Shown: positions 5,490-47,147 of the stretch, piece after piece
How positions within the stretch are numbered: the stretch's first letter is position 1
Layout of the letters: the number at the start of each line of letters is the position of its first letter
Sequence record: PZ787336.1
Source of the DNA: a phage
Strand: one strand, 5' to 3'
Length of the DNA: 47,147 bases
Translations under genes and position numbers: made by a program
The notes under the pieces: generated by a model
Database searches by the model: none
What the model was told of the DNA's origin: nothing
What the model saw: only the letters and a program-made list of their open reading frames with translations

Positions 5490-6034
5490 GTATTTCAGAT
5501 AGTTTTCGTGAGCGACTTTGCGGACTTTTTAGAAACTGACCACAAAGATAAATGCAAACGATGATGTTGTTCTGATGGCGGCGTAATAGCCTGTAAGTCA
5601 GCAAGGTCTTCCGATTCCTTGTAAACAAATTCGGCGCACTGGCCCGGTGTGATTAATAATGGGCACGCAACAGGTAAGAGCATTGAGAGGTTCGATTCCT
5701 CTTGGTTATTGAGGCCGCGAGGCGCGCTGGAATTGATCAACCAGTGTGAAATCCAATAGGCATAGGTTCAGTGCTCTTTCCGTTGTGGTGAATGCGCAGG
5801 TCGATGCGCAAGTAAGCAACCGATGGCGAGGTAGTGTATAAGGCGGTCGCTGCAAGCCTTGAACTGAAAATCCCGTCACGCCGGAGTTCGACACCGGCCA
5901 CCATAACACTTAACATTCAGCGTTATCGCAATCATATGTAGGGGTATGTATGGGTTACGGGGCTGGATGTTAAGAAAGCATGCTGGCAATGCTTAAACCA
6001 GCAATAAGGCCGCTTCGTGCGGCTTTATTTATTT
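5490..6034 (+). other. promoter-to-terminator plus-strand locus without ORF; candidate non-coding RNA
   Basis: no plus-strand ORF longer than 17 codons; bounded by promoter and hairpin terminator; contains a tRNA-like T-arm GAGAGGTTCGATTCCTCT. Confidence 0.25.
6009..6034. terminator. rho-independent terminator
   Basis: GCCGCttcgtGCGGC followed by tttatttattt. Confidence 0.6.
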
Positions 6035-7148: not shown

Positions 7149-7567
7149 TTACTCCCACGCACAACCGCAAACCACGGCTTGCCGCCGCCGTCCGGGTCTT
7201 CCACTAAATCGCCAGTGCATCCTGCTGTATCCAGTAGTTTCATCTGATTGTATAGCGCCACCCACGGCTTGCTGCCATAAGCGAATGATTGCGATGCGCC
7301 AGATGGTGCGCTCTGACTGGTGACGTAGCGCCCTGCGGTATTTGCGCTAATCAGGATGGAAGCCCACAGCATGATCGCATTTTGCCGGCATTCATCATTG
7401 GGGTAGTTCAGCTCAAGGCATTCACTGATTGATGCCACAAGACACAGAATACCAGACGCATCCGTTGTGGTGATAGTCATTCCACGTGATGCCATCTGGC
7501 TTACTAATTCTTCAGGTGTTGGTGCTGCCATTTTTTTTTGACTCCCGTACCTTCCACCACATTTCAA
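7139..7567 (-). CDS. putative head-tail connector protein
   Basis: 142 aa; likely true start at internal Met (about 7531); position-based. Confidence 0.5.
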   Translation of the reverse strand: MKCGGRYGSQKKMAAPTPEELVSQMASRGMTITTTDASGILCLVASISECLELNYPNDECRQNAIMLWASILISANTAGRYVTSQSAPSGASQSFAYGSKPWVALYNQMKLLDTAGCTGDLVEDPDGGGKPWFAVVRGSKCK

Positions 7568-10931: not shown

Positions 10932-11104
10932 TGACACCAGAACAATTCATTGAAAAACAACTTCGCACCAAGCTGCCTGACATTGACCAGATGGCAATTG
11001 ATGCGGCGATTCAGTATTACAAGCGCAATCAGAGCGCAAAGAAGGGTGGCATTTTTGAAGAATGCCTGAAGGTTGCAAAACAACACATGATTAAGGTGAA
11101 GTGA
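10931..11104 (+). CDS. hypothetical small protein (57 aa)
   Basis: ATG overlaps the methyltransferase stop (TAATGA); coupled to the next ORF. Confidence 0.3.
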   Translation: MTPEQFIEKQLRTKLPDIDQMAIDAAIQYYKRNQSAKKGGIFEECLKVAKQHMIKVK

Positions 11105-11244
11105 TGAAACTAAAAATTAGCAAATTATTACTTGAATCAGCATTAATATTTCAGGGTCGCAATGATGTGCGATATTACCTGAATGGAATCTGCTTCATGC
11201 CTGATGGTCGCATTGCATCAACTGACGGTCATCGCGCGTGGTGA
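11104..11244 (+). CDS. 46-aa ORF resembling a fragment of the DnaN beta sliding clamp
   Basis: NDVRYYLNGICFMPDGRIASTDGHR matches the conserved DnaN stretch QDVRYYLNGMLF...ATDGHRLA; stops after 46 codons, terminator follows. Confidence 0.4.
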   Translation: MKLKISKLLLESALIFQGRNDVRYYLNGICFMPDGRIASTDGHRAW

Positions 11245-15558: not shown

Positions 15559-15817
15559 TTAGTACGTCCTCAGCAAGTTTGCGGAACATGATTTGCACTC
15601 TTGCCACTTTGCGCCACTCAGCTTCGGTGAGAATCACATCCTCCTGCTGCGGAATTCCCGACATTTCGCATGGCGGTAATGGCTCATACTCTTGCTTCTT
15701 GCGTTTGGCTTTTCCCATGCTGACCTCTTGCGCTGCGAAGAAGTAAATTAAACAGGTTGCTGACATTAACCTCCTGCTCATGCCATGAGTAACGCCACAG
15801 CTTCTTGTGGTGGTCAT
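15542..15817 (-). CDS. hypothetical protein (start uncertain; may begin at internal Met)
   Basis: ORF begins inside a 19-bp tandem duplication. Confidence 0.4.
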   Translation of the reverse strand: MTTTRSCGVTHGMSRRLMSATCLIYFFAAQEVSMGKAKRKKQEYEPLPPCEMSGIPQQEDVILTEAEWRKVARVQIMFRKLAEDVLNEMGY

Positions 15818-15842
15818 AGCTTCTTGTGGTGGTCATAGCTTC
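15799..15842. repeat. perfect 19-bp tandem direct repeat (agcttcttgtggtggtcat x2 plus partial third copy)
   Basis: two identical adjacent copies at 15799-15817 and 15818-15836 straddling a gene boundary. Confidence 0.6.
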
Positions 15843-16245: not shown

Positions 16246-16426
16246 CTCTTGTGTTCCATTTCTTCATTGCCGTGGATGCGCAGCAATACGAGTCAGTGCG
16301 GCAAAAACAATCTCCGCACTCAACGTGCAACCATTCGCCGTCATCAATAACACTTACGTCATCACAACCACAAAACGGGCATTCAAGTAATTTCTCATCG
16401 TTCATTAGTAGTGTCATATTGCTCAC
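16181..16426 (-). CDS. Lar-like restriction alleviation protein (zinc-ribbon)
   Basis: 81 aa with CPFCG...C..C pattern and C-terminal KKWNTR, as in Lar-family proteins. Confidence 0.5.
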   Translation of the reverse strand: MSNMTLLMNDEKLLECPFCGCDDVSVIDDGEWLHVECGDCFCRTDSYCCASTAMKKWNTRGGHLYTSDDFNQAAEERDYGL

Positions 16427-16933
16427 CTTTTGTATTCAAAAATTTCCCGTGAACCATCTTTATGAGCCTGTTCCTCTCCTCTTTTGCTTGTGTTATTGAC
16501 GAGAATCTACCTCCATAATAATGCTTGCCATTGGCTGTAATTTGAACCCTCCACCTTTCTCGCGAAGAGTCCCAAACAACATCCTTAACTCCGCTTGTAT
16601 TATTGTTTTTCACGCCTACATTCATAACATTTTGACCTCTTGTGACCAATCTTAGGTTGCTGATGCGATTATCTTTCTTGTTCCCATTTATGTAATCAAT
16701 CTCATATCCGTTTGGTATATCTCCATTGCAAACAATCCACGCCATTCTGTGTGCGTAAAACCTCCCGATGGGGAGTTGAATTCTCCAATACCCATGCGAT
16801 GTAATACCTCCAGCCACCTTCCCTTTCTTTGATTTTCTTGAGAAATATCAATCCATAGAAAGTTTCCTGTATTTTCATCATACTGGAGGAACTTTAAAAT
16901 GCTTTCCTGACTAATGTTGCTCATTTCAACCAT
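16395..16933 (-). CDS. HNH-AP2 homing endonuclease, apparent frameshift
   Basis: N-terminal part (LQYDENTGNFLW...) in ORF 16688..16933, HNH (GYEIDYINGNKKDNRISNLR) and AP2 parts in ORF 16395..16817; frames differ by one base at a short A-run near 16819. Confidence 0.65.
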
Positions 16934-17115
16934 TCTCCCAGATTGTTAAATTTAGGTGTACCCCCAGACCAGTCGATGACATCTCTTTGCTGACTGCGCT
17001 TGCGTTGCAGGCGGTTGCGCACTTCTCGTAACTCGCACTCCAGCCATTCGCGAGTGCGCTCAACTTCATTCAACCTCTGGATTAACGATTCTTCGTACAG
17101 TTCGTCATGCGCCAT
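16921..17115 (-). CDS. hypothetical protein
   Basis: 64 aa ORF in operon. Confidence 0.4.
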   Translation of the reverse strand: MAHDELYEESLIQRLNEVERTREWLECELREVRNRLQRKRSQQRDVIDWSGGTPKFNNLGEWLK

Positions 17116-17175
17116 TTATAATTTCTCCCGTAGAATTTGATAACAACGTGCTCAACGCACAGATAACCTTCATCT

Positions 17176-17373
17176 TCAACCGTTACTGGTTGAACTATAA
17201 ACCACCGCAGATATAAGTTCGTCAGCCTTTTCACGACCCGCAACCTCCGCTTCAAGCGCCAGTGAACACATGGCGGTTTCCACAAACTTAATGGTATCCT
17301 CGCGAACGTTAAGGATTTCCATAACCTCGCGAACTTCCTTCTGGTATCTCGCTGCTATTTCTTTGTATCGCAT
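17176..17373 (-). CDS. hypothetical protein (start at ATG 17373)
   Basis: track ORF starts at a TTG at 17403 inside the promoter region; first ATG is at 17373. Confidence 0.4.
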   Translation of the reverse strand: MRYKEIAARYQKEVREVMEILNVREDTIKFVETAMCSLALEAEVAGREKADELISAVVYSSTSNG

Positions 17374-17384
17374 TTCCACATCAC

Positions 17385-17448
17385 CTTTTCCGTTGTGGTA
17401 CAATCTACGTCAACAAGTATTGACTAAATGATGTAGAAACGTCAAGAT
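17385..17448. promoter_or_regulatory. divergent promoter region (plus TTGACT at 17420-17425; minus-strand TTGACG-TAGATT element at 17401-17413)
   Basis: contains caatctacgtcaa and gatgtagaaacgtcaa, both members of the repeated motif family. Confidence 0.4.
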
Positions 17449-17472
17449 GTTTTTCGAGAAGGAGTAGTAAAT

Positions 17473-17679
17473 ATGCCAAGACCACGACGCGAGCCGATGG
17501 ACATTATCACCAGCATTGTGGAGAAGCGACAACCGCTGACACTCCGTGATGTTCGCTACTTCGCCCGTTGCTATGTGGCGCTGGCTGATATGCCTAAGGA
17601 AGATATGTATGATTTGATTCGGGCCAACTTCAGTGTTGACGAGAATAATAGAGTGACAATGAAAGAGGATGAGAAATGA
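17473..17679 (+). CDS. hypothetical protein
   Basis: 68 aa ORF with GAAGGAG RBS. Confidence 0.45.
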   Translation: MPRPRREPMDIITSIVEKRQPLTLRDVRYFARCYVALADMPKEDMYDLIRANFSVDENNRVTMKEDEK

Positions 17680-18186
17680 GGCATAGGAGAGATGAGCCGA
17701 GTAGGGAGTTTATATTGAGTTACCTTTACTACAATCCACTAACTGGGGAATTTAAATGGCTAAAGACAAGGAATAGGATTGCAGAAAAGGGAGTGTGGCT
17801 GGCTACTTAAAGCCAGATGGATATGTGCAAATAATTCTTTGCGGTAGGGCTTTTCTTGCTCACAGATTGGCATGGATATGCATTCATGGCGCGCCAGCAA
17901 GTGAAATGATTGACCACATAATGGCATTCGCAATGACAACAGGGCGTGCAATTTAAGGGAGGCCAGCAAATTTGAGAATAGCCACAACAAAGCAATGAAC
18001 AAAAACAACACTAGCGGTATCAAGGGGGTTAACTGGAGTTCATCGCACAACAAGTGGCATGCAAGAGTTGGAGTAAATGGCAAAAGATTCACAGTTGGTT
18101 ACTTTTCCGACATAAGAGAAGCAGAAGCAAAAATAAAAGAATTCAGGAGAATGCATCACAATGAGTTCACAAATCACGGGCGATAA
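17676..18186 (+). CDS. HNH-AP2 homing endonuclease, two apparent frameshifts
   Basis: N-terminal YYNPLTGEFKW in frame 1, GYLKPDGYVQI...AHRLAW...IDHI in a second frame, AP2 domain (GIKGVNWSSSHNKWHARVGVNGKRFTVGYF) in ORF 17995..18186; shifts at aaaaggg (17785-17791) and ataatgg (17918-17924). Confidence 0.65.
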
Positions 18187-18463
18187 GCGCCATACTGACG
18201 CAACAGAGCGACTCATCACCGAACGCGGTAGTCGATACGGTAAATTCAAAGACGGCGCTGAAATTATGCAGGAGTTGAAAGATGTGATGCGCGAGGTAGA
18301 TGGCTGGCGCAATCTCACACCAAGTCAACGCGAGGCGCTCGACATGATTCAGCACAAGATTGGGCGCATTCTGAATGGCGACCCGACTTATGATGACAGC
18401 TGGAAAGATATTGCTGGCTATGCAACGTTAATTGTTAATGAACTGAACGGAGAGATTAAATAA
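18161..18463 (+). CDS. hypothetical protein
   Basis: 100 aa ORF. Confidence 0.45.
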   Translation: MSSQITGDKRHTDATERLITERGSRYGKFKDGAEIMQELKDVMREVDGWRNLTPSQREALDMIQHKIGRILNGDPTYDDSWKDIAGYATLIVNELNGEIK

Positions 18464-18738
18464 TGTCTTTTTGCGACATCACAATCGCGCAGCGAAACGC
18501 GAACTTCACCAACATTACTGACACTTCCGCACAACTTGTATCACTGAACAGCGACGGCAGCGCAGTGCTGAAAATCGGCACAGAAACAGCGCAATTCATC
18601 GTGCAGAATCTGTCGCAGGCAAACGCGAAGCAGGTGCTTATTAGCACTGGTAGCGTGCTGTTTCTGGCTGGTAATTACAATGCACCGAATCTTGAGTGCT
18701 CACTGGTGCGGATTGTGGAGGATCATAATGGCGAGTAA
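18463..18738 (+). CDS. hypothetical protein
   Basis: 91 aa ORF coupled to upstream stop. Confidence 0.4.
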   Translation: MSFCDITIAQRNANFTNITDTSAQLVSLNSDGSAVLKIGTETAQFIVQNLSQANAKQVLISTGSVLFLAGNYNAPNLECSLVRIVEDHNGE

Positions 18739-19105
18739 GCCGATTCTTACGGAGGGTAGGCGCGGTAAGTCATGGCTATCCTACCCAAGTCAGTATATGT
18801 ACGATGGCTGGAGAATCGCATTCCCTGCAAAGCATTCCAATGGCAACCCAAGATTGGCTATCCTGTTCAATGAACGTAGCAATGAATGCAGCGGAACGGA
18901 AATTCAAACATTCGATTTGTATCTGCCAGCGAGTGGGAGGATGTATGAAGGGAGTGATGACGAAGCCAGATTTAGGAAGGAAAACTCACCAGCTGCCTAC
19001 ATCGTTACGGATAATCGAGGTAAACGCTATCTGGTGTTTTCTGGTAGCACTGAGCATCAGAATGCAATTATGTTTGGGTACAAGATGGAGGCGCTTTATG
19101 CGTGA
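18728..19105 (+). CDS. hypothetical protein
   Basis: 126 aa from ATG 18728 with GGAGG RBS; the track ORF starts earlier at 18680. Confidence 0.45.
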   Translation: MASKPILTEGRRGKSWLSYPSQYMYDGWRIAFPAKHSNGNPRLAILFNERSNECSGTEIQTFDLYLPASGRMYEGSDDEARFRKENSPAAYIVTDNRGKRYLVFSGSTEHQNAIMFGYKMEALYA

Positions 19106-19130
19106 CATTGGCTACGGAGAAGGTTAAAAC

Positions 19131-19156
19131 AAAGCCCCATCACGGGGCTTTTTTAT
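19131..19156. terminator. bidirectional rho-independent terminator
   Basis: GCCCCatcacGGGGC followed by tttttt, preceded by A-run. Confidence 0.65.
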
Positions 19157-19631
19157 TACGCAGAGAATTATACTGTGCCTCACACGTCAATCCTGCCTCT
19201 CTCGCCCTGTCAGCGTAATCTGCCAGCTGTTGATTTCTTTCGACAGATTTGCGGAGCACGTCTGCAAGCAAAACTCCGGTTTCTGCGGCTGGGTTGCCAA
19301 TGGACTCAGCGGTGGAATATCCGACGAGCTGCTTGCGGATACTGGTGAGTTGTTGCTGCAACCTGCCAGACTTAGCGACAGCATTAACAGCATCATTGCG
19401 CGCAGCATCAATCCTTTGCTGTGCGTCGGCCTGAATCTTTTGCAGTTCTGCATTGCGTCGTTGCTCCTCTTGTTCGTCTGCGGCCTTCTGTTCTGCGACT
19501 GCCTTCGCGTATCCGGCGGCATATTGTTGCTCGCCATAACCGGACACTTTATTTGCCACCCACAACGCGCCAGCGGCAACAATTATAATAATTGCCAGCG
19601 GTCGCCAGTATTTAACGAGAATCGACATCAT
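19140..19631 (-). CDS. Rz: i-spanin (Rz-like)
   Basis: 163 aa, N-terminal transmembrane helix, Ala/Gln/Arg-rich coiled-coil-like periplasmic region; follows endolysin and holin candidate. Confidence 0.65.
   Translation of the reverse strand: MMSILVKYWRPLAIIIIVAAGALWVANKVSGYGEQQYAAGYAKAVAEQKAADEQEEQRRNAELQKIQADAQQRIDAARNDAVNAVAKSGRLQQQLTSIRKQLVGYSTAESIGNPAAETGVLLADVLRKSVERNQQLADYADRAREAGLTCEAQYNSLRNKKAP
19187..19408 (-). CDS. Rz1: o-spanin (Rz1-like lipoprotein) embedded in the Rz gene in another frame
   Basis: MLRAMMLLMLSLSLAGC signal with LAGC lipobox, Pro-rich mature part, fully nested in 19140..19631. Confidence 0.5.
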   Translation of the reverse strand: MLRAMMLLMLSLSLAGCSNNSPVSASSSSDIPPLSPLATQPQKPEFCLQTCSANLSKEINSWQITLTGRERQD

Positions 19632-19851
19632 TGCGCAGCCTCCGGTTTTCCTTCCTCATGCCGTGCATTTTGCCGAGGATGCCGACAAGCATAATTGAGT
19701 AACTCACACCTTTGACCACGATTGGCGGTAGCGCTGCTTTCAGGTCATCCGGCATCATTACCCACACATGCATCATTGCATCAGGCCATAGTTGTAACAG
19801 CGAGCAGAATGAAATCCACGCGGCGAGCAGCCAGTTGCTTAGCTTTTTCAT
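19612..19851 (-). CDS. putative holin (two transmembrane segments, charged C-terminus)
   Basis: 79 aa membrane protein between endolysin and Rz; ATG overlaps the endolysin stop (ATGA). Confidence 0.4.
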   Translation of the reverse strand: MKKLSNWLLAAWISFCSLLQLWPDAMMHVWVMMPDDLKAALPPIVVKGVSYSIMLVGILGKMHGMRKENRRLRNDVDSR

Positions 19852-20311
19852 GCCACAGCTCCGCCAGCCTCTTTGTATACCTGAATCAGCTTATCCAGCT
19901 TCTGCTCATGCTGACCATACCCAGCGCCCGGCAATGAGGCCCAGCGGGAGCGGCATTTATGGATGGCATCAGCAATGCGACCAGCCTCAATATCAGCGGT
20001 GGCCTTGCATTCACGGATTAGCTGCATTGCAATGGCGTCCTGCGATGCGGGGAGAAGTCCGGTAAACGCAATTGCTTTTTGTACGCATCATAAAACTTAG
20101 CCAGTACCTGATAGCGACCGGCGGCGGTGGATTTAATGCCCAGCCTTGGCAGGCTAATCAGCTTGCGCGGGTGGTCGGAATAGTCGGTAAACAGTGAGCC
20201 GCCAACAATCACATCATAACCATGATTATTGGTTTTCTGCCGCCCGTTATCAGTGCCCTCGCTGTACGCCAGCATATCCAGAAACGCCTTCATGTTTTTA
20301 CTAATAGCCAT
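19848..20311 (-). CDS. endolysin, lambda R-like lytic transglycosylase, apparent -1 frameshift
   Basis: N-terminal KAFLDMLAYSEGTDNGRQKTNNHGYDVIVGG...DFSP closely matches lambda R; the C-terminal SQDAIAMQ...WASLPGAGYGQHE continues in another frame after a C4 run (plus 20049-20052). Confidence 0.8.
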
Positions 20312-20579
20312 ACCAGTAAACCTCTTTTTCAGCTTTGCGTTTTGCTTTGTCGCCAGTCTTCTCGCCCCACGCGATGAAATGCGCAACAGCACATGAGAAG
20401 CAGCGGAGGTTGTGCTTCTTCAGAAGCGTTGATTTACGGAACGCGTAAATGCCAATGTCGGTGGCAAGACTTGCCAGCGCGTCGAACTGATTCTGCGTTG
20501 TCTCGGTAGTGATGTAAGGCGATACATCCACGGCATCGGTAATTCCAAACGTCTCCACGCCTCGTTGCGATAGTTTCAT
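20301..20579 (-). CDS. hypothetical protein upstream of endolysin
   Basis: 92 aa with GGAGG RBS; stop overlaps the endolysin ATG; no clear transmembrane helix, so not called holin. Confidence 0.4.
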   Translation of the reverse strand: MKLSQRGVETFGITDAVDVSPYITTETTQNQFDALASLATDIGIYAFRKSTLLKKHNLRCFSCAVAHFIAWGEKTGDKAKRKAEKEVYWYGY

Positions 20580-20605
20580 TCTGCCTCCAGTTCAAATAAT
20601 GATTA

Positions 20606-20616
20606 ATTCTATCACA
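20606..20616 (-). promoter_or_regulatory. extended -10-like promoter (TGTGATAGAAT on minus) for the lysis operon
   Basis: about 20 nt upstream of the ATG at 20579. Confidence 0.4.
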
Positions 20617-20623
20617 ATGACTA

Positions 20624-20654
20624 TTGACGTAGATTGAGTGGTGGTGCATAGTAT
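20624..20654 (+). promoter_or_regulatory. sigma70-like promoter TTGACG...TAGTAT
   Basis: TTGACG 20624-20629 followed by tagattga; TAGTAT 20649-20654; 30 nt upstream of the ATG at 20685. Confidence 0.5.
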
Positions 20655-20684
20655 CTACATCAAATGATGAGTGAGGGAGAAATC

Positions 20685-20828
20685 ATGGCAATAGTCAAAT
20701 TCAAAGAAAGCGGTTGTCGCAGAATGTTCAGCCTTGAGCAAATCAAAATCCGTCCGTGCGGCAAGGTGGTTGCGCCATTTAGTCTGGTGCAGATGCGCGA
20801 AGTTGAGATTGTTGAATATATTAAGTGA
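20685..20828 (+). CDS. hypothetical small protein (47 aa)
   Basis: GAGGGAG RBS; below the track length cutoff. Confidence 0.35.
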   Translation: MAIVKFKESGCRRMFSLEQIKIRPCGKVVAPFSLVQMREVEIVEYIK

Positions 20829-20836
20829 GGTTGGTG

Positions 20837-21088
20837 ATGAAAGAATTTAAAGGAATCCCTGGGTCGTGGCATTACGATGATGAACTTGGTGGGGTCTATA
20901 GTAATGGCGACCAATTCGTGTGCGATGTTACCAATAAGGATGATGCCAACGTCATCGCTGCAGCACCTGAGCTTCTGGAGGCTTTGCAGAAAATGCTCAG
21001 TAAAGCGTATAAGCAAAACTGGAATGACGCATACCCAGAAGTGATTAAATCAGCACAGGATGCAATCAACAAAGCGCTAGGAGAATGA
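20837..21088 (+). CDS. hypothetical protein, paralog of 38762..39043
   Basis: shared EFKG..G(A/S)W, IAAAPELL.ALQ and AINKALG motifs with the second copy. Confidence 0.5.
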   Translation: MKEFKGIPGSWHYDDELGGVYSNGDQFVCDVTNKDDANVIAAAPELLEALQKMLSKAYKQNWNDAYPEVIKSAQDAINKALGE

Positions 21089-21089
21089 A

Positions 21090-21740
21090 ATGAAACTTAT
21101 CGAACTGTTAGTTCAAGAATTACCTAAGCGTGGTGGGTGGAACGAAAACTGGGTGGTGGTTACGCAAGATGCCGACGGCTATTTCTGTTGCTGGCGTTAT
21201 GATGACCCAAGATACAATGGATTTGGCTGGAGACACAGAACAGGAAAGGGTTTAGTTGGATACTGGCGAGTTGATAATGATGTTGTTTTATCATGCGACA
21301 GTACGAAGGCAATGGTAACTAGAAGCCAATACGAATCCGCACTCGCAGCATCACAAAAGCCAACATGGAGCGGCGAAGGCCTACCTCCAGTTGGTGCAAA
21401 AGTAGAATTCTTCATCAATCCAAAGTTAGGATACCGCAATGCCTGGATTCCTGATGCCGGCACTGAAATGGAAGTTGTGGCGCACAAGACAACAACGGAC
21501 GGAAACGATGTTGCTGTTTGCTATTGGGATGAAGGTGGTGCTGGTCGGTCATGCTGCTTCGTACCGGAAAGCCTAAAACCACTACGCACAGAAGCAGAAA
21601 GGAAACATGAGGCCGTACTTGAATCTATCTGTGCGGTATTAGAAATGGTGGCGCAAGATTACAAGCGCGAGGATGGGGCCAAGCTAATTTATGAAGCCAT
21701 CGCAGCAGGCAAAATTCCCGGCGTGAAACTTGATGATTAA
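21090..21740 (+). CDS. hypothetical protein (216 aa)
   Basis: ORF followed by a terminator; no recognised domain. Confidence 0.5.
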   Translation: MKLIELLVQELPKRGGWNENWVVVTQDADGYFCCWRYDDPRYNGFGWRHRTGKGLVGYWRVDNDVVLSCDSTKAMVTRSQYESALAASQKPTWSGEGLPPVGAKVEFFINPKLGYRNAWIPDAGTEMEVVAHKTTTDGNDVAVCYWDEGGAGRSCCFVPESLKPLRTEAERKHEAVLESICAVLEMVAQDYKREDGAKLIYEAIAAGKIPGVKLDD

Positions 21741-21814
21741 AACAATATTCAGCGTCGTAGAGATATTGTGCTATGCGATAATAGTATTTGTTCTGTGCAT
21801 GCTGATAAGATAAA

Positions 21815-21845
21815 ACCAAGCCCTCACTTAGAGGGCTTTTTGTTT
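21815..21845. terminator. bidirectional rho-independent terminator
   Basis: AAGCCCTCacttaGAGGGCTT followed by tttttgttt. Confidence 0.65.
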
Positions 21846-21858
21846 ACCGATTGCCATG

Positions 21859-22946
21859 CTAATTATTCATTATTTCATTCATTAATTCCGGTGAATACTT
21901 TAGCCACTCGGTGCATCCATTGAACCCACTAAGTCCAGCGGACTCATATCTATTATGATAATCGCTCTCCATTGATATTGCATCAACGCCTGAAAGTTTT
22001 ACGTACTTAATCACCTCAAACTCAAATGGCGTACTGCTTCTTAGTTGCATAATGCGTTGCTTTATTTTATTGGTTATCCCCACCTTTATTCCTTTCTCGC
22101 TCATTAGGAAGTAAACATACGATTTCTTATTCTTATCAAATCCTGTTACAGCGCATGATGGACATCCAGAACCTTGTATATGATGTGATGCTCGCTGTAC
22201 GAATACTCCATGGATGGGGCATGTTATTGACACGTTGGAGAGGGAGTTCTTGTAGCCGCACTTATCATAAATGTATTTATCTCCATGGACCGCCATTGAT
22301 TTTCTAGCAAAATCAGCTTCACTATCAGTTTGTGATTTTACTTGCTTGCTCTTACCGCAGGACGGACATCCACATCCAATCAGATGCACTGATGGTTTTT
22401 GCAATAAAACCCCATGAATTTCGCAAAGTATCATTACTTCTTTATTGTTTGCCTCATACTTAACGAGTGAGTAATCATATCTGTCACCATGAATGCCCTT
22501 TGATTTCTCAATAAACAGATCATTGCCAAGAGAATAAGACTTTGCTCTCTTTATGAGTCCGCAGCTAGGGCATCCCTGGCCATGTAAGTGATCTGATGGT
22601 CTTTGTTCAAATTCACCATGTCTTCGACAAACTATTACAACTTTTGATTCGCAATCTTTGTATTTAACTTTCGAGTATTCGTATGTATTAGAATGGATTT
22701 TTTTGCTTTTAATATAAACGATTCTGCATCGCTTCTTTTTGCGTTGCCTCTTCTGATGCACGCACACGCCGGACATCCATTACCAGCTAAATGATTTGAT
22801 GGTGATTGCATAAAATCACCATGCTCGCGACAGGTAATGATGACTTTAGTTTTTGAATTTTTGTAATTAGTCTTTGAATAATCATAACGATCGCCATATC
22901 GACAGATTACTTCAGAGATAAAGCGTGATGTCTTTTCTTTTGACAT
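21859..22946 (-). CDS. homing-endonuclease-like protein with tandem CPxCG zinc-ribbon repeats and C-terminal T5orf172 (GIY-YIG-like) domain, apparent frameshift
   Basis: first repeat unit in ORF 22635..22946, further units and the YVYFLMSEKGIKVGIT...TEW domain in ORF 21859..22776; frames meet at an A7 run (plus T7 at 22698-22704). Confidence 0.6.
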
Positions 22947-23027
22947 GATAACCTCGTGTAGGTTCGTGATGAAGATTGCAGCAGGGCGTCACGTTCACCT
23001 TTTCGACTGGCCGGTCTAGCTGCACTT

Positions 23028-23042
23028 GTGATTATATCACTT
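23028..23042 (-). promoter_or_regulatory. extended -10 promoter (GTGATATAAT on minus strand)
   Basis: identical 13-mer gtgattatatcac to the one at 5443-5455; upstream of the endonuclease-like gene. Confidence 0.45.
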
Positions 23043-23990
23043 CTCGTGCTGTGATTCCCATTTTTCTCTTGCCATCACCATCTTATTAAGAGATGACTCA
23101 AGCATGATTACATTGCCATTTTCATCTAACATGCATGGTGTTTGCGCACAGTGGCAGCGATAGCGATTTCCGTCCTTTGAGTAAAATTCCTCTACATCCT
23201 CCGGGCTAAAAGCGCGTGCGTGTCTGGCTGAGTGCGTGGCGCGGGTGGTTTTTAATAATGCCGACACCCAAAAAAGCGCGCTATTTAGCCCCAAAATAAT
23301 CTTTGATTCCTGAACTTCGTCAGACTGCGACTTACGTAAAATGCCTGTAAGCTCGGTTTGGGCAATATTTTTTGCTCGTGATTCACTTACACCGACGCGC
23401 TTAATGATGTCTGATTCAATATCTCTCGGATTAGAACCAACGGCGATAGCATTCATGATCACTTGAGATAAATCATTTCTCGCCGCGTCACCAATGCCAA
23501 CCCAATCACTGTAAGTGGTGGCATTGGCAATAGATAGACGCTGCAAATATGGCTCCGAGTAAATAATGTCTGCAATTGAACGGCGCTCAGCATAGAGTGG
23601 AGACATAGCTGCCAGTTGTTGTTGCGCCTCGACCGTTCCAGCCGAATAGGCGTCAGCGACATAAATTGACATCCAGAACTGACCTGCATTCATTGGCTGT
23701 GTGTCGTCAAGCAGGATTTCATCAATTAGCTGTTGCAACGCCTCATTGAATTGAGCCGCCCGAGCAGCTGAAAAATCATACCTGTAACCATAGGCATCAA
23801 TGGAGTTAATTGCGGCAACTGGGATTGACCTGAATAAGTCTATGACTGAAGATTTAAGGCGCTTGTATCGCGCCTCAATCTGTTTATTTGCCTTGCTTAG
23901 TCTCCTGTTGGCTCCAACAGGGTCTGTTTTGCTGGTTGGTATTTTCGGACCAACCAGTCTGGCACTAACCTTAAAGATTTTGATTTTCAT
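23037..23990 (-). CDS. head morphogenesis protein (minor head protein, SPP1 gp7 / Mu F-like position)
   Basis: about 318 aa immediately downstream of the portal gene; the track ORF extends to 24065. Confidence 0.6.
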
Positions 23991-25374
23991 CGTCAGGATT
24001 ACCCTCAGTGACGACCTGGATTTCTTCAATCGGCTCCATACCAACCATACCGCGAGCCTCATCAACGGTCAGCAGCGCAGATTGACCAGCATCAAAGAAC
24101 GACTTATTAGCAGTGGCGAGCTTGGACAGCAATTCCGCTTTATCCAGCTCTGAAGGTGCAAGCAGGTCATCCCACTTAACCTTGTAGCCATTTGTCGGTG
24201 CTTTATCGACAATGCCAAACTGAATCATGCGCTCAACGAACATTGAGATAACATAGTCAACCCACGTTTCGCGTCGCTGCTTGGCGGTCATCGCCTCCTG
24301 CATCTTGTCTTCATCGCTCGCAAGGCGTCCGGTTTGCTGACCAAAAATGACGGTGAACGGAAGCGCCATTGATGCAGCGAACTGGTTGGCAGCCACTTCC
24401 CACGTAGGTTTTGGGTCGGCGGGCGTCACAGCGAGCACCTTTGCATCCGCGCCCATTGTGAACATGGCTGCGTCAATCCCGGAGTTCAGCGCCTCAATAT
24501 TCTCATTCATGATATCGGTGAGTTCTTCAATATCGACACCCATAGACTGCGCAAGGCTTGCTGGCGTTACGTTGTCCTTCGTGTAGTTAACAGCCAGTTG
24601 ACGGCTGGCATTCTTCAGGAATCCTTCCGCAGAGCTGCCGGAAACTTTAGCCATGTCGATAAGGCTATTGTAACCAGCACGCAGCATCGGGATGCCGCTG
24701 AACATGCTGCCATCAAAACTACCCTCAGCAAGAATAATGATGCGGTCAGGATGAATCTGCACGGAACGCTCAGGTTTGCCGTCGCTGTCGAAATCTTCCA
24801 CGGCGCTTTCCTGATACTCGTACATCTCAGGCATTCCGTAGTCTTCGCTGGTTTCGTCGTTATTCCATGCGCTAACGCGTAGCTGCTCTTCCCATACCGG
24901 AATAAAGCGAACGATGGATTTATCTTTAATGCGGCGGGTTTTGGTGATGTCTACCGGCTCACTCCATTGCTTGCCATCACGGATTTGCAGGATAACGGCG
25001 GAATAGCGGTTGATGGCATTGCGCTTGTCGGCCTCCTTGATGAATGGATAAGCACGCTTCATCATTTCGTTGATGGACAGCTCCCACGTCGTGGAGTTCT
25101 TGTCATCCTCGCCATCTTCTACCACTTCAGGGTATTTCTGCCAGCATTTATTAATAATGCGGTTAATACCAGCGGCGGCTGCTGGATGTCGCTCGTAGGC
25201 ATAGCGGAACATCTCAGCAGTGATTTCTTGCGGGTATCCCAGCTCCTTCCACATGAACTCACGTTTCTGGTCTAGATTCTTCCCGCCAGCACAAAGCCGC
25301 TGCTGCTGAATAGCCCGGTTATTGTTCGCTACGCGGTCGCGAATATAGGCGTTTAGTGCATCAATTTTGGACAT
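23971..25374 (-). CDS. portal protein
   Basis: 467 aa acidic protein between terminase region and head morphogenesis gene; size and position typical. Confidence 0.7.
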
Positions 25375-25420
25375 ATGTCACCAATAAAAAATCCCTCACG
25401 ATGGAGGGATTATAGCATGG

Positions 25421-25672
25421 TCACTTGTTGCGATTTCGATTTCTGTAGGCCGGATAGAATTTTGACAGAGGCCACACCCAGAATTTCCACAGCATCTCAT
25501 CGTAGCCCGGTAGCGCCTCATGGAATCTCTTGCCTGCTGCGTATCCATTAGGGTCTTCTTCATAGAAGAACTTTATAAACCCAATTCTCGCATCAGCAAC
25601 TGCGTTGTTCCTAACAAGCATATAAGCAATGAACACCATAACGATAAGACCAAAAATCATAACTGCCATCAT
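25421..25672 (-). CDS. hypothetical membrane protein
   Basis: N-terminal transmembrane helix MMAVMIFGLIVMVFIAYML; the track ORF starts at 25717. Confidence 0.4.
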   Translation of the reverse strand: MMAVMIFGLIVMVFIAYMLVRNNAVADARIGFIKFFYEEDPNGYAAGKRFHEALPGYDEMLWKFWVWPLSKFYPAYRNRNRNK

Positions 25673-25679
25673 CACACCT

Positions 25680-25841
25680 CTATTTGAAATATTGATACAG
25701 CAAGCATGGCACAACACCAGTTACCACAGCGAAAAATGAACCAACTATAAAGTGAATCCATCTCGGTTCATTCACTCCGGCAGCCATAGCCCACCAGAAC
25801 ATAAAGTTAAGTGGAATCCAGAACGACCAGAATATAGCCAT
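25680..25841 (-). CDS. hypothetical small membrane protein (53 aa)
   Basis: AAGGTGGAG RBS; Trp/Phe-rich hydrophobic sequence; start overlaps upstream stop. Confidence 0.35.
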   Translation of the reverse strand: MAIFWSFWIPLNFMFWWAMAAGVNEPRWIHFIVGSFFAVVTGVVPCLLYQYFK

Positions 25842-26050
25842 CACTCCACCTTTTCGAATTTATCAAAAATAACAGAAAGATTAAAAGCACCTCTTTCAGT
25901 GATTGACTGAATTTCTTTCACCTGCGCTCTCATGGCATCTTCATATGCACTAACTGCATCAGGTCCAATTGATAATCCGCAGAAACCACCAACGCTCGCC
26001 ACGATTCCTTGTCGCTCAATGTGACCGCAATAAAAATAAACGCTCATCAC
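25841..26050 (-). CDS. hypothetical protein
   Basis: 69 aa ORF coupled to neighbours. Confidence 0.4.
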   Translation of the reverse strand: MMSVYFYCGHIERQGIVASVGGFCGLSIGPDAVSAYEDAMRAQVKEIQSITERGAFNLSVIFDKFEKVE

Positions 26051-26214
26051 TCAATCTCCTCACCGTTAACCCAGCGTTGCAGGACTTCTATTAACTGAGC
26101 GGCTTGGTGTTTGTCAATCCTGACATAATCGCCAGTGAAATCCTGCACGCAAATGGTATCGTAATCCGTGAACGCATTAATCGCCATGCAGTTAACCGTT
26201 TCCTCAATTTTCAT
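26047..26214 (-). CDS. hypothetical small protein (55 aa)
   Basis: GAGGTGA RBS; stop overlaps next ATG (ATGA). Confidence 0.35.
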   Translation of the reverse strand: MKIEETVNCMAINAFTDYDTICVQDFTGDYVRIDKHQAAQLIEVLQRWVNGEEIE

Positions 26215-26222
26215 CGCTCACC

Positions 26223-26630
26223 TCAACAAAGCTCACCATCAGTTATCATCAACAACTTCTGCCATTTAGCCACCGGCCTGCACAGTTCGGCCTTCAGTCT
26301 GCTTAACGAGCCTGTGATATCAGGCCACTCGGTAAAAGGAATAAATCGCACAAACCGGTAATCAGCACCAGACCAGTGCCAGCCTAGCGTGTAATCAACA
26401 TAAGAGCCGTCTGACTGCATATTAATGTAATGTGCTGTTGCGCTATCATCATTAATCATAACTACCTCAACCACTGCGCACGAACTACCATCGCGAGCCT
26501 TGTTCACTGCATTCAGATGACAGGCGTGATTGTACAGGCCAGCGCCATCAATGAATGAGATATCAATCTTTTTGGTGTATTTCTTATCCGCAGCGTCGCG
26601 GATTATTTTCTTTAATTTCGATTTAATCAT
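26223..26630 (-). CDS. hypothetical protein
   Basis: 135 aa ORF. Confidence 0.45.
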   Translation of the reverse strand: MIKSKLKKIIRDAADKKYTKKIDISFIDGAGLYNHACHLNAVNKARDGSSCAVVEVVMINDDSATAHYINMQSDGSYVDYTLGWHWSGADYRFVRFIPFTEWPDITGSLSRLKAELCRPVAKWQKLLMITDGELC

Positions 26631-26859
26631 TGTTGTTAAACCTGTAGTCCCTACGCGCCGCTAAACTGTTTGTTTTATACTCATGGCCGCAATTTCGGCA
26701 TCTGCAAAAGTAATAATTTCCAACCCTCTTTACAGCATCGACGTTTTCCCAAACAATGCCGCCAAGCCCTAAAATGTAGTTACTGATGTTTTCGTTATAG
26801 CACCTGCTACACCTTAAAGACCTCTTCCTTCTACAGCTTCCTCGACCACCCATAATCAC
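26623..26859 (-). CDS. hypothetical Cys-rich (zinc-ribbon-like) protein
   Basis: CxxC ... CxxC pattern (CSRC...CRCRNCG). Confidence 0.4.
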   Translation of the reverse strand: MIMGGRGSCRRKRSLRCSRCYNENISNYILGLGGIVWENVDAVKRVGNYYFCRCRNCGHEYKTNSLAARRDYRFNNND

Positions 26860-26870
26860 CCTCTAAAAAA

Positions 26871-27068
26871 TCAGTTAACCATATAGTAAATATCATCACG
26901 AGCAAACTCATCAGCATCCTCCTGGCATTCAATTGCAACATCTTCATCATAATATGATGCTAACTGCCGCGCCGTAGCTCTGCGCTTTTTCTTGCTATTA
27001 CGCATATCTCTGAATACGCACAGTTCTTTATCATATGCCCGGACCATTCTTTTCATTATGCTTTTCAT
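26871..27068 (-). CDS. hypothetical protein
   Basis: 65 aa ORF. Confidence 0.4.
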   Translation of the reverse strand: MKSIMKRMVRAYDKELCVFRDMRNSKKKRRATARQLASYYDEDVAIECQEDADEFARDDIYYMVN

Positions 27069-27072
27069 GTTT

Positions 27073-27279
27073 TCACCATCTCAAAAAATCATTCTTGCAG
27101 CAGATACCCTTATATCCGCGCTTCTCTTGCAGGTTAACGAAAACATCATCCAGAACGCGCAGCAGAAAATCCTCGTCGATATCATACCGACGGCAAATAA
27201 CCTCATCAGGCACACCAGCTCGCGCCAGTGAATAAACCTGTTCTTTTTCCTCCTGTGTGAATCCTGCATAGCTGCGCAT
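27073..27279 (-). CDS. hypothetical protein
   Basis: 68 aa ORF, first gene after promoter at 27310-27338. Confidence 0.4.
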   Translation of the reverse strand: MRSYAGFTQEEKEQVYSLARAGVPDEVICRRYDIDEDFLLRVLDDVFVNLQEKRGYKGICCKNDFLRW

Positions 27280-27309
27280 AGTGATATCTCCGATAAGCCT
27301 GATGTAGAT

Positions 27310-27338
27310 ATACTATGCGCTCGGTGTAGATTTGTCAA
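27310..27338 (-). promoter_or_regulatory. sigma70-like promoter TTGACA-N17-TAGTAT on minus strand
   Basis: plus tgtcaa 27333-27338 and atacta 27310-27315; immediately downstream of the terminase large subunit stop. Confidence 0.5.
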
Positions 27339-27354
27339 GTGTGGTGATGCAGAT

Positions 27355-28779
27355 TTATCGCCTGCGCCGGATTAGCATTCCGCTACCGCGTTGAACGATA
27401 TGGTCATTGAGCGCGTAACGAACCGCATCCCAGAAGTGGTTGAATGCATCAACAATATCGGTCAGCACATTCCCTGTCAGCTTATCAACTTTGTAACTGT
27501 ACATTGCAGCTTCATTCTGTATTTCCTTGCATCGTTCGTGAATGACAATGCTGTCACAGCCGCGTAACCATGTCACGCCATCCTCAACGCTTCCCGGCCA
27601 TTTTGTGCATGGATGAATGTCAAACCCGGAACGCTTGATGTGACTGATGGTTTCTGGTCGAGCGCAGTCTGCATACCATCGTGCGCGCTTAGCCATCGGG
27701 AATGATTGCTCCATCGCCGCTGGCGTATCGGTAATCTCAAGGCCAACCTTGCCATACTCGCGATTAATATAAATGTTGCGCCGTCCGCCTGGTAACTCTT
27801 TGATGTACACTTCAACCATTGCGGTAGGATCGGTGGAAAACCCGAAGTCCATTCCGAAATATGGACCGTGCCATTCAGGTTTGACTTCGAAGTTATCAAT
27901 GCGCCATTTGCCGCCGAAGACCTGCTCATCACTGCGTTTGTTAAATTTGCCTTCCCATATCCACATGTAGCGGTCGAAATCGACGCGCTTCATTTGCTCC
28001 ATAGCGGATGGCAACGGCGTATCCCAGAACCACGGGTTGTCTGAATAGTTACATTCGATAACCAGAATTTCATCGTTTTCGAATATGCCATCAACCATTT
28101 GTGAGTGGTAGGGAGCAATCCAGTTTTTCCATGTCGGGTCTGTATCTTTGTTGGGGTTAAATGAGCACCACAACTCGGAATTAGCAGTACGGATGGTAGG
28201 CACAAGAATATCCCAGCTTGTCTGGCTGACGTTCTCTGCTTCCTCTACCCAGCCAACGGTAATGCCAGCAAAACCCTTGACTGTAGTCTGGTTGCGATAC
28301 AGCCCCTTGAAGCGAAATTTAGCCTTAGTCTTTTTGTGAGTTATCTCGTTGTTGATAACGCGAAACTCTGCCGATTCTCCCTTGCGGGCTATTTCGTCAA
28401 CAAGCTCCTGATAGCTTGAATCCTCAATGGATTGCTGAATCTCGCGAAAGCAGGCGAAGCGGTCAGGACGAAACCTTGCTCGCTCGGTAAGGATAGTGAT
28501 AATCGTTCTTGTCTTACCTGACCCACGACCACCGTAGACAAACTTGAAACGCTTCGGATAAAGCAGTCGCTCCAGTTTTGCCGGAATAAGGTGGTCGGCA
28601 TGAGTGGTTGCATTGGTTACGTCATCAACGCCAGTAGCGGTCATCCTTAACCGCTTAATGACGTTCTTCTGCATGTCGCAGATTCCAAAGATGGCGGACT
28701 CGGCTACTTCGGTCATTGCATCATCAATCTGCGCTTCCAGCTTTTCGATTGCCAGTGCGGATAGGCGTTTACGAGCCAT
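27355..28779 (-). CDS. terminase large subunit
   Basis: Walker A VYGGRGSGKT, conserved size; ATG at 28779; the track ORF starts at a TTG at 28818. Confidence 0.85.
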   Translation of the reverse strand: MARKRLSALAIEKLEAQIDDAMTEVAESAIFGICDMQKNVIKRLRMTATGVDDVTNATTHADHLIPAKLERLLYPKRFKFVYGGRGSGKTRTIITILTERARFRPDRFACFREIQQSIEDSSYQELVDEIARKGESAEFRVINNEITHKKTKAKFRFKGLYRNQTTVKGFAGITVGWVEEAENVSQTSWDILVPTIRTANSELWCSFNPNKDTDPTWKNWIAPYHSQMVDGIFENDEILVIECNYSDNPWFWDTPLPSAMEQMKRVDFDRYMWIWEGKFNKRSDEQVFGGKWRIDNFEVKPEWHGPYFGMDFGFSTDPTAMVEVYIKELPGGRRNIYINREYGKVGLEITDTPAAMEQSFPMAKRARWYADCARPETISHIKRSGFDIHPCTKWPGSVEDGVTWLRGCDSIVIHERCKEIQNEAAMYSYKVDKLTGNVLTDIVDAFNHFWDAVRYALNDHIVQRGSGMLIRRRR

Positions 28780-28919
28780 ATCGAACACGCCCCCAAGCGA
28801 TAACAAATCCTGATACAAGGAACATAGATGCGAATATGCTACCAGCGAAATCCCCTGATGGCATAATGGCGCTAACCATGCTCATAGCGATAGATGCCAC
28901 AAAACACCACGTAACAACA

Positions 28920-29543: not shown

Positions 29544-30011
29544 TTATTTTTTTTCGTTCTCTTCCTGGTATTTCTCAAACCAGAAAACAACTGGTCTCTC
29601 CACCACGGCGATAAGACCGAAACGCTCTGCAGTGCGGAAATTCATGCTGCTTTTGCGCCCACGAGCAACCTGAAGAGATACCTGCTTCCTGAACATTTCC
29701 AGGGAATAGGAAGTTTTCATCAGATTGCAGGGGGCGCACGCAGGGTAAAGGTTTTCCAGTCGCTCGGCTTCTGGTCGATATAGCTCACCGGTTGCCTTCA
29801 GCTTGAAAATCCCTTTCGCCGCTGCCTTCATGCACTGCTCAGATTTACGTAGCACTGGTTCAACATGGTCTGCATGCCAACCTTTCTCGGGTAGCTCACA
29901 CCCACAATAAGCACAGCGACCACCGAACTTCATGCGTAGCTCTTCGCGTTGTTTTTTTGTTAGCTTCATTTCATCTACCATTTGTATGATTTTTTGTGTA
30001 GCACCATGCAT
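29544..30011 (-). CDS. HNH endonuclease (terminase-associated)
   Basis: CAYCGCEL...WHADHVEPV...CAPCN HNH motif; located directly upstream of the terminase small subunit; the track ORF extends to 30068. Confidence 0.75.
   Translation of the reverse strand: MHGATQKIIQMVDEMKLTKKQREELRMKFGGRCAYCGCELPEKGWHADHVEPVLRKSEQCMKAAAKGIFKLKATGELYRPEAERLENLYPACAPCNLMKTSYSLEMFRKQVSLQVARGRKSSMNFRTAERFGLIAVVERPVVFWFEKYQEENEKK

Positions 30012-43927: not shown

Positions 43928-47147
<3,220 letters not shown>

What the first reader, a model, noticed from the sequence alone, without database searches (positions are those of the whole stretch)
16395..22946. At least five genes are interrupted by single-base deletions in homopolymer runs: probable systematic sequencing error
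Endolysin (C4 run at 20049-20052), zinc-ribbon/T5orf172 endonuclease (A7 at 22698-22704), HNH-AP2 endonuclease on plus strand (aaaaggg at 17785-17791 and ataatgg at 17918-17924) and HNH-AP2 endonuclease on minus strand (A-run near 16819) all continue in a neighbouring frame with the expected conserved motifs after a short homopolymer. All are consistent with one missing base. An essential lysis gene being hit argues for homopolymer under-calling rather than real pseudogenes. Other overlapping-frame regions, such as the methyltransferase and the K/J overlap, may have the same cause.
Basis: partly seen in the sequence, partly recalled or inferred. Interest (0 to 1): 0.7.

Follow-up and report, generated by a model that had tools for sequence, protein, structure and literature searches.

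The report
Private single-base deletions, probably assembly errors
Five missing bases break the lysis enzyme and all three selfish endonuclease genes of this phage genome; they are most likely consensus errors in one poorly supported stretch of the assembly, not a genome-wide homopolymer problem and not old pseudogenes.

Summary
The window is a complete, circularly permuted 47 kb siphophage genome. Compared with every close relative it lacks one base at five places: 16846, 17788, 17919, 20052 and 22699. These break four genes: two HNH-AP2 endonucleases, a T5orf172 endonuclease and a lambda-R-type endolysin. Putting one base back restores a full-length ORF each time.

Only two sites are clean homopolymer contractions (A5 to A4, G5 to G4). 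Two are ATTA to ATA. The fifth is loss of the C or G that interrupts an A-run in relatives.

Long runs elsewhere (T9, T8, 7-mers) agree with relatives, and no other gene is frameshifted. The methylase and the tail-gene overlap are normal. So "systematic homopolymer under-calling" is only partly right.

Error still fits best:
- All five changes are deletions, and they come with almost no private substitutions.
- The plus-strand HNH gene is identical to ZCEC08 apart from its two gaps.
- T5orf172 shows 17 of 22 private changes synonymous in the restored frame.
- An essential gene is hit.

The clustering in 6 kb and the 4-of-5 hits on endonuclease genes remain unexplained, so recent real mutations stay a live rival. 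Two further private lesions are not base-call errors: a 19-bp tandem duplication and a deletion of at least 400 bp.

The parts
16395..16933 (-). HNH-AP2 homing endonuclease, split by a one-base deletion at 16846 (ORFs 16688-16933 and 16395-16817)
   Evidence: Intact in ZCEC08 (99.4% identity, 1 gap) and in IMG/VR L069 (88%, 1 gap). The restored 179-aa protein hits Pfam HNH_3 at 67 bits; AP2 is weak.
17676..18186 (+). HNH-AP2 homing endonuclease, split in three by one-base deletions at 17788 (A5 to A4) and 17919 (ATTA to ATA, inside the HNH motif)
   Evidence: The gene is 513 bp and intact in ST1UNAM and ZCEC08. The window differs from ZCEC08 by 0 substitutions and 2 gaps. The restored 170-aa protein hits HNH_3 at 42 bits; AP2 reaches 23 bits, below cutoff.
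19848..20311 (-). Lambda-R-type endolysin, split by a one-base deletion in the C-run at 20049-20052 (C4 here, C5 in relatives)
   Evidence: C5 is found in 22 of 22 IMG/VR and metagenome contigs and in the isolates. The restored 154-aa protein matches lambda lysozyme 1AM7/3D3D at E = 7e-62.
21859..22946 (-). Zinc-ribbon/T5orf172 (GIY-YIG-like) endonuclease, split at the A7 run 22698-22704
   Evidence: The gene is 1089 bp and intact in six relatives, which read AAAAACAA, AAAAGAAA or CCAAAACAA there. The restored 362-aa protein hits T5orf172, MUG113, DUF723 and DUF4379. Of 22 private substitutions, 17 are synonymous in the restored frame.
15803..15840 (-). Perfect 19-bp tandem duplication that truncates the wHTH (MarR-like) 'transcription factor' gene from 162 to 125 aa.
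   Evidence: All 12 relatives carry one copy. The duplication lies between CAYAGCTTC near-repeats. Removing one copy restores the 162-aa protein. The junction is absent from IMG/VR.
11101..11244 (+). 47-codon remnant of a 178-aa 'DNA pol III beta / RusA-like' gene, truncated by a deletion of at least 400 bp (junction 11237/11238)
   Evidence: Only residues 1-46 align to the four relatives. Every top-ranked phage record matches in two pieces that span 880-1020 bp against 521 bp in the window. Breakpoints are shown.

Best explanation
The five single-base deletions are most likely errors in the deposited consensus: base-calling, assembly or polishing mistakes confined to one poorly supported stretch of about 7 kb. 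The real phage would then carry an intact lambda-R-type endolysin, two intact HNH-AP2 endonucleases and an intact T5orf172 endonuclease.

Shown here:
- The deletions are private to this record.
- Each is repaired by a single base.
- They come without the substitutions that real decay would bring.

Inferred:
- The cause is technical and local, for example a stretch covered only by indel-prone reads, or left unpolished because it differs structurally from the material or reference used for polishing.

The 19-bp tandem duplication and the deletion of at least 400 bp nearby are a different kind of event. They are probably real mutations in accessory genes.
For: 1. Each site is a one-base deletion relative to every relative that carries the gene, and none is an insertion.
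2. One inserted base restores ORFs of exactly the relatives' length, with the expected domains.
3. There is essentially no accompanying divergence. The plus-strand HNH gene has 0 substitutions against ZCEC08 but 2 gaps. The endolysin has 0 substitutions against ST1UNAM but 1 gap. Private substitutions run at 0 to 1.5 per kb (4 in all) across 16-22 kb, and 3 of the 4 lie in T5orf172. Three gaps against 15 substitutions in this block compare with 0 against 97 in two other high-identity blocks (P = 0.003).
4. In T5orf172, 17 of 22 private substitutions are synonymous in the restored frame, on both sides of the shift (P = 2e-6 against neutrality). The full frame was therefore under selection until essentially now.
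5. The endolysin, needed for lysis, is in frame (C5) in 22 of 22 IMG/VR and metagenome contigs and in the isolates.
6. None of the window's alleles was found in IMG/VR, in the phage collection or in the exact-protein index.
Against: - The pattern is not what a platform-wide error model predicts. T9, T8 and all 7-mers agree with relatives, and three of the five sites are not homopolymer contractions.
- The five sites cluster within 5.9 kb (P about 0.002).
- Four of the five hit the genome's only three homing-endonuclease genes (P about 2e-5 genome-wide, about 0.03 within the stretch).
- Real frameshifted alleles exist in nature. The same T5orf172 gene has a 78-aa frameshift allele on 4 Logan/ENA contigs.
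- The same endolysin C-run is C6 in a JGI contig. A Logan contig that is 100% identical over its 913 bp also has C6, so the two may be the same phage or sample and count as one observation. An ENA contig has an amber stop in the same gene.
- Two neighbouring private lesions, the 19-bp duplication with flanking microhomology and the large deletion, look like real mutations.
- No reads or platform information were available.
Confidence: 0.62

Rival explanations
1. The deletions are real and very recent mutations. The dispensable homing-endonuclease genes were knocked out by slippage during natural spread or laboratory passage. The endolysin frameshift is either tolerated or belongs to a non-viable or helper-dependent genome. 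One way it could be tolerated: the N-terminal 97 aa and C-terminal 59 aa are made separately, because an in-frame ATG sits 8 nt before the new stop.
For: - Four of the five hits are in the only three homing-endonuclease genes, and none is in about 30 kb of structural and replication genes.
- Two adjacent private lesions that cannot be base-call errors also inactivate accessory genes.
- A frameshifted allele of the same T5orf172 gene occurs on 4 independent contigs.
- The endolysin C-run is C6, a +1 shift giving the same 59-aa downstream ORF, in a JGI contig. A Logan contig 100% identical to it over 913 bp also has C6, so these may be one phage or sample. An ENA contig carries an amber codon.
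- The hardest homopolymers are correct, so the assembly is otherwise accurate.
Against: - Five indels with almost no private substitutions is far from any natural indel-to-substitution ratio.
- One gene is hit twice, without compensation.
- A broken endolysin should prevent plaque formation.
- No independent record shares any of the alleles.
- Function of a split lysozyme is pure speculation.
Confidence: 0.27
2. One reading: genome-wide systematic under-calling of homopolymers by a flow-based or nanopore platform.
For: All five changes are deletions. Two are A5 to A4 and G5 to G4, and one site now reads A7.
Against: - 134 of 154 runs of 5 or more bases match all relatives, including T9 at 7531, T8 at 29547 and four of the five other 7-mers. 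Another 11 are natural polymorphisms.
- Two sites are dinucleotides, and the A7 is best explained by loss of an interrupting C or G.
- No frameshift occurs anywhere else in 40 kb.
- The methylase and the tail-gene overlap are normal.
Confidence: 0.06
3. Programmed recoding or contingency loci. The runs would be slippery sites where ribosomes or polymerases restore the frame, or hypermutable tracts used for on/off switching.
For: - The A7 lies in the phase A_AAA_AAA, so a -1 ribosomal slip would give exactly the full-length T5orf172 protein (read directly from the sequence).
- The endolysin C-run is seen as C4, C5 and C6 in different assemblies.
- A 2025 preprint reports homopolymers of 6 or more bases acting as contingency loci in phages (10.1101/2025.10.21.683753).
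Against: - Relatives are in frame and not slippery at every site.
- Four of the five sites have runs of 5 or fewer bases.
- No downstream RNA structure exceeds shuffled controls (z = +0.77 and +0.46).
- One deletion sits inside the HNH catalytic motif.
Confidence: 0.03
4. Old, decaying pseudogenes: the late stage of the homing-endonuclease invasion, fixation and degeneration cycle.
For: Homing-endonuclease genes are known to degenerate after fixation (general knowledge). All three such genes are hit.
Against: - The genes are 99.4-100% identical to intact homologues apart from the gaps.
- T5orf172 private changes are 77% synonymous in the restored frame.
- There are no extra stops or further indels.
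Confidence: 0.02

Closest known systems
Indel errors in phage genome assemblies from indel-prone reads (454, Ion Torrent, nanopore, PacBio CLR)
   Same: Single-base deletions only. Each splits a conserved gene into adjacent frames and is repaired by one base. No accompanying substitutions. An essential gene is affected.
   Different: The longest homopolymers are correct, three of the five sites are not homopolymers, and the errors are confined to about 6 kb with a bias towards endonuclease genes. This points to a local support problem rather than a platform-wide signature.
Degenerating homing-endonuclease genes (HNH-AP2 and T5orf172/GIY-YIG free-standing endonucleases in phages)
   Same: All three endonuclease genes are presence/absence polymorphic among relatives and are interrupted here. 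A naturally frameshifted allele of the same T5orf172 gene exists (P0139).
   Different: There is no sequence decay apart from the single missing bases. Codon-level selection was intact until the present. An essential non-endonuclease gene is hit in the same way.
Phage contingency loci (homopolymers of 6 or more bases giving reversible frameshifts; Gomez, Barrick and Waters, bioRxiv 2025)
   Same: Frameshifts at mononucleotide runs inside phage ORFs. The endolysin C-run length varies (4, 5, 6) between assemblies.
   Different: Only the A7 site reaches the 6-base criterion, and relatives do not even have a pure run there. No population-level read data are available.
Programmed -1 ribosomal frameshifting on A_AAA_AAA or A_AAA_AAG (dnaX, IS elements, tail chaperone G/GT)
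   Same: The A7 in T5orf172 is in the canonical phase, and a -1 slip would restore the protein.
   Different: There is no conserved slippery site in relatives and no stimulatory structure. The other four sites have no slippery heptamer.

Membership tests
Platform-wide homopolymer under-calling artefact | Errors concentrate in the longest mononucleotide runs | tested here: not met
   T9, T8 and four other 7-mers have the same length as relatives. 134 of 154 runs of 5 or more bases are concordant.
Platform-wide homopolymer under-calling artefact | Errors are spread over the whole assembly | tested here: not met
   All five lie within 16846-22699, with no other frameshift in 40 kb. Clustering P is about 0.002.
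Consensus indel error (any cause) | Private to the record; one base restores a full-length conserved ORF; no accompanying divergence | tested here: met
   The alleles are absent from IMG/VR and from the exact-protein index.
Consensus indel error (any cause) | Raw reads disagree with the consensus, or depth and quality drop at the sites | not testable with these tools
   No reads, quality values or platform information were available. The record itself was not found in any collection.
HNH-AP2 homing endonuclease | An HNH_3 nuclease motif followed by an AP2 DNA-binding domain | tested here: inconclusive
   On the restored proteins, HNH_3 scores 67 and 42 bits (cutoff 24.8). AP2 scores 17 and 23 bits, below its 33.3 cutoff.
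T5orf172 / GIY-YIG-like endonuclease | A T5orf172/MUG113 C-terminal domain with N-terminal zinc-ribbon repeats | tested here: met
   T5orf172 29.3 bits (cutoff 20), MUG113 38.8 bits, DUF723 29.7 bits, DUF4379 25.1 bits on the restored 362-aa protein. The cluster is named a GIY-YIG nuclease by NCBI.
Lambda R-type lysozyme (lytic transglycosylase) | Full-length similarity to lambda lysozyme, including the catalytic Glu in the SEGTD motif | tested here: met
   E = 7e-62 to 1AM7 and 3D3D over residues 3-153; the SEGTD motif is conserved. In the window as given, the frame breaks after residue 88.
Programmed -1 ribosomal frameshift site | A slippery heptamer in phase | tested here: inconclusive
   Met only at the A7 (GC A_AAA_AAA TCC). 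Not met at the other four sites.
Programmed -1 ribosomal frameshift site | A downstream stimulatory structure, and conservation of the shift among relatives | tested here: not met
   Fold z-scores are +0.77 and +0.46. All relatives are in frame.
Phage contingency locus | A mononucleotide run of 6 or more bases with length heterogeneity within populations | tested here: not met
   Four of the five sites have runs of 5 or fewer bases. Heterogeneity within a population cannot be tested without reads. Between assemblies the C-run is seen as 4, 5 and 6.
Decaying homing-endonuclease pseudogene | Relaxed selection: excess non-synonymous changes, extra stops or indels | tested here: not met
   17 of 22 private substitutions are synonymous. 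The HNH genes differ from intact homologues by 0-2 substitutions.

The most novel reading that the evidence does not exclude
The deletions are real. In this lineage all three free-standing homing endonucleases were switched off by recent one-base slippage events. The endolysin carries a frameshift at a naturally length-variable C-run (C4, C5 and C6 are seen in different assemblies). It is still made as two complementing fragments, or restored by reversion in part of the population, which would be contingency-like behaviour in an essential lysis gene.
Probability: 0.1. Interest if true: 0.55.

Novelty: not a real feature. Interest (0 to 1): 0.15.

Why it matters
If these are errors, the record should be corrected. 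As it stands, four genes would be annotated as eight or nine fragments or pseudogenes, and the phage would wrongly appear to lack a working endolysin. That matters for anyone judging it for therapy or mining its lysins.

The case also shows that "frameshift in a short run" should not be read automatically as a platform-wide homopolymer problem. A census of long runs and of private substitutions separates the alternatives.

If the deletions are real, it would be an unusually clean example of simultaneous homing-endonuclease inactivation. It would also show a length-variable run in an essential lysis gene.

Tried and rejected
1. An apparent sixth deletion at 27308 (ATTA to ATA, intergenic). Rejected as a lesion because 16 of 31 IMG/VR contigs carry the short allele.
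2. A6 at 26865, one base longer than in two relatives. It is intergenic and treated as natural variation.
3. A stop-codon scan using all stop-to-stop ORFs of relatives. Too noisy, so it was replaced by a scan with annotated CDS.
4. Finding the source record or independent copies of the alleles. Exact-protein look-ups, IMG/VR pattern scans, a metagenome scan, a genome scan and literature searches on the genome length found no copy of the window.
5. A shared sequence or methylation motif at the five sites (GATC, CCWGG and others). None was found by inspection.
6. Local GC content as a cause. No consistent pattern: 0.32-0.50 within 50 nt either side.
7. RNA structures that could stimulate frameshifting. 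None exceeded shuffled controls.
8. Looking up cluster members P0003 and P0139 on their contigs.


Full report
**What the window is.** The 47,147-base window is a complete siphophage genome of the Skatevirus/Saltrevirus-like group of enterobacterial phages. It is colinear with Salmonella phage vB_SenS_ST1UNAM, Escherichia phages vB_Eco_ZCEC08 and HC6, Salmonella phage PJN025 and others. It is circularly permuted: base 47147 continues into base 1 inside a minor tail gene. The record itself was not found in any collection I could search.

**Checking the observation.** Alignment to the closest relatives shows five one-base gaps, all of them deletions in the window.

| Position | Change (+ strand) | Gene | Intact in |
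|---|---|---|---|
| 16846 | AAATT to AAAT | minus-strand HNH-AP2, 16395-16933 | ZCEC08 and an IMG/VR contig |
| 17788 | A5 to A4 | plus-strand HNH-AP2, 17676-18186 | ST1UNAM and ZCEC08 (513 bp) |
| 17919 | ATTA to ATA | same gene, inside the HNH motif | ST1UNAM and ZCEC08 |
| 20052 | G5 to G4 | endolysin, 19848-20311 | 465 bp in relatives |
| 22699 | TTGTTTTT, TTTCTTTT or TTGTTTTG to T7 | T5orf172 endonuclease, 21859-22946 | six relatives (1089 bp) |

Adding one base at each site restores ORFs of 179, 170, 154 and 362 aa. The restored proteins carry HNH_3 (plus a weak AP2 match) and T5orf172/MUG113/DUF723 domains. The restored endolysin matches lambda lysozyme at E = 7e-62.

So the core observation is right, but several details are not:
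- Four genes are hit, not five.
- The minus-strand lesion is at 16846, not in an A-run near 16819.
- Only two sites are true homopolymer contractions.
- Two sites are TT to T.
- The A7 is most simply produced by deleting the single C or G that interrupts the A-run in every relative.

**Is it genome-wide?** No.
- I compared every annotated CDS of four relatives with the window. All other genes are full length. All large ORFs are intact.
- Of 154 mononucleotide runs of 5 or more bases, 134 have the same length as all close relatives. These include the T9 at 7531, the T8 at 29547 and four of the five other 7-mers. Another 11 are natural polymorphisms. The only run inside a gene that differs from all relatives is the T7 itself.
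- An apparent sixth deletion at 27308 is a common intergenic polymorphism, present in 16 of 31 IMG/VR contigs.
- The five deletions therefore cluster within 5.9 kb (P about 0.002).
- Four of them fall in the genome's only three homing-endonuclease genes, which make up 4.5% of the sequence (P about 2e-5 genome-wide, about 0.03 within the stretch).
- All five also lie in segments that the HC6-type genome lacks. HC6 is the best match for two large blocks elsewhere in the window.

**Other private lesions.** Two more gene-breaking differences are unique to the window, and neither is a base-call error.
- A perfect 19-bp tandem duplication at 15803-15840 lies between CAYAGCTTC near-repeats. It truncates a wHTH protein from 162 to 125 aa.
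- A deletion of at least 400 bp leaves only 46 codons of a 178-aa clamp-like/"RusA-like" gene at 11101-11244. Every top-ranked phage record matches across this junction in two pieces spanning 880-1020 bp, against 521 bp in the window.

These look like real slippage or recombination events in accessory genes.

**Real or error?** Several results argue that the one-base deletions are either artefacts or extremely recent.
- The plus-strand HNH gene is identical to ZCEC08 apart from its two gaps. The endolysin is identical to ST1UNAM apart from its gap.
- Private substitutions are nearly absent across 16-21.8 kb.
- The 16.9-21.7 kb block has 3 gaps against 15 substitutions relative to its nearest relative. 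Two other high-identity blocks have 0 gaps against 97 substitutions (P = 0.003).
- T5orf172 does have private substitutions. Of 22, 17 are synonymous and 18 are at third codon positions in the restored frame, on both sides of the shift (P = 2e-6 against neutrality).

Long-standing pseudogenes are therefore excluded. A broken endolysin should also be lethal for a plaque-forming phage, and this gene is in frame in 22 of 22 IMG/VR and metagenome contigs.

**What keeps the real-mutation reading alive.**
- The assembly is accurate at its hardest sites.
- The hits favour dispensable endonuclease genes.
- Neighbouring lesions look real.
- Nature does contain broken alleles. A 78-aa frameshift allele of this same T5orf172 gene sits on four Logan/ENA contigs.
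- A JGI contig has C6, a +1 shift, at the very same endolysin run. A Logan contig that is 100% identical to it over its 913 bp also has C6, so the two may be one phage or sample.
- An ENA contig has an amber codon in the same gene.

**Recoding.** Programmed recoding is unlikely. Relatives are in frame and not slippery at every site, only the A7 sits in a canonical A_AAA_AAA phase, and no downstream structure exceeds shuffled controls. A recent preprint on phage contingency loci concerns runs of 6 or more bases, a criterion that four of the five sites fail.

**Verdict.** The most likely explanation (about 0.62) is consensus error confined to a poorly supported or unpolished stretch. Recent real mutations come second (about 0.27). 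Reads or Sanger sequencing across six sites would settle it. As a biological finding the interest is low. The unexplained bias towards endonuclease genes is the only part worth a second look.

Noticed in passing
window 15803-15840: A perfect 19-bp tandem duplication (unit AGCTATGACCACCACAAGA on the minus strand) lies between CAYAGCTTC near-repeats. It frameshifts the wHTH/MarR-like gene from 162 to 125 aa. It is private to the window.
   Followed up: yes
window 11101-11244: Only the first 46 codons remain of a 178-aa 'DNA pol III beta / RusA-like' gene. At least 400 bp are missing relative to all the relatives examined, and a terminator-like hairpin follows directly.
   Followed up: partly
window 20301-20579 (minus strand): A 92-aa remnant of a GH24 phage lysozyme (Pfam PF00959, profile positions 55-114 only, with no N-terminal catalytic part) overlaps the start of the lambda-R-type endolysin. 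It is conserved in relatives, where both genes are annotated 'endolysin'.
   Followed up: partly
L011 4494-4959; L013; L012 907-1371: Metagenome contigs of related phages also carry a disrupted endolysin. A JGI contig and a Logan contig, identical to each other over 913 bp, have C6 instead of C5 at the same run. An ENA contig has an amber codon at Tyr44.
   Followed up: partly
window 27308: An intergenic one-base length polymorphism (GATTATAC against GATATAC) between the terminase gene and the next gene. The two alleles are about 50:50 among IMG/VR relatives.
   Followed up: yes
window 21859-28818 and 41621-43888: Mosaic ancestry. The portal, head-morphogenesis and terminase genes are 97-98% identical in protein to PJN025, but the terminase is only 61% identical to HC6, ST1UNAM and ZCEC08. 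Those three are 99% identical to the window elsewhere. The 755-aa tailspike has no close match among the fetched relatives, which carry an endosialidase.
   Followed up: no
window 47147/1 (46792-47147 plus 1-114): The record starts and ends inside a 156-aa minor tail gene. It is therefore an arbitrarily opened circular assembly, not a genome oriented at its physical ends.
   Followed up: partly
window about 6004-6008: No tRNA gene was detected, although ZCEC08 and HC6 annotate a tRNA-Ile here. About 85 bp are absent, as in ST1UNAM.
   Followed up: partly
proteins P0139 and P0142 (cluster of P0012): Natural variant alleles of the T5orf172 endonuclease. P0139 is a 78-aa frameshift allele in a different A5 run, found on four contigs. 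P0142 is a 294-aa in-frame allele that lacks one zinc-ribbon repeat.
   Followed up: no
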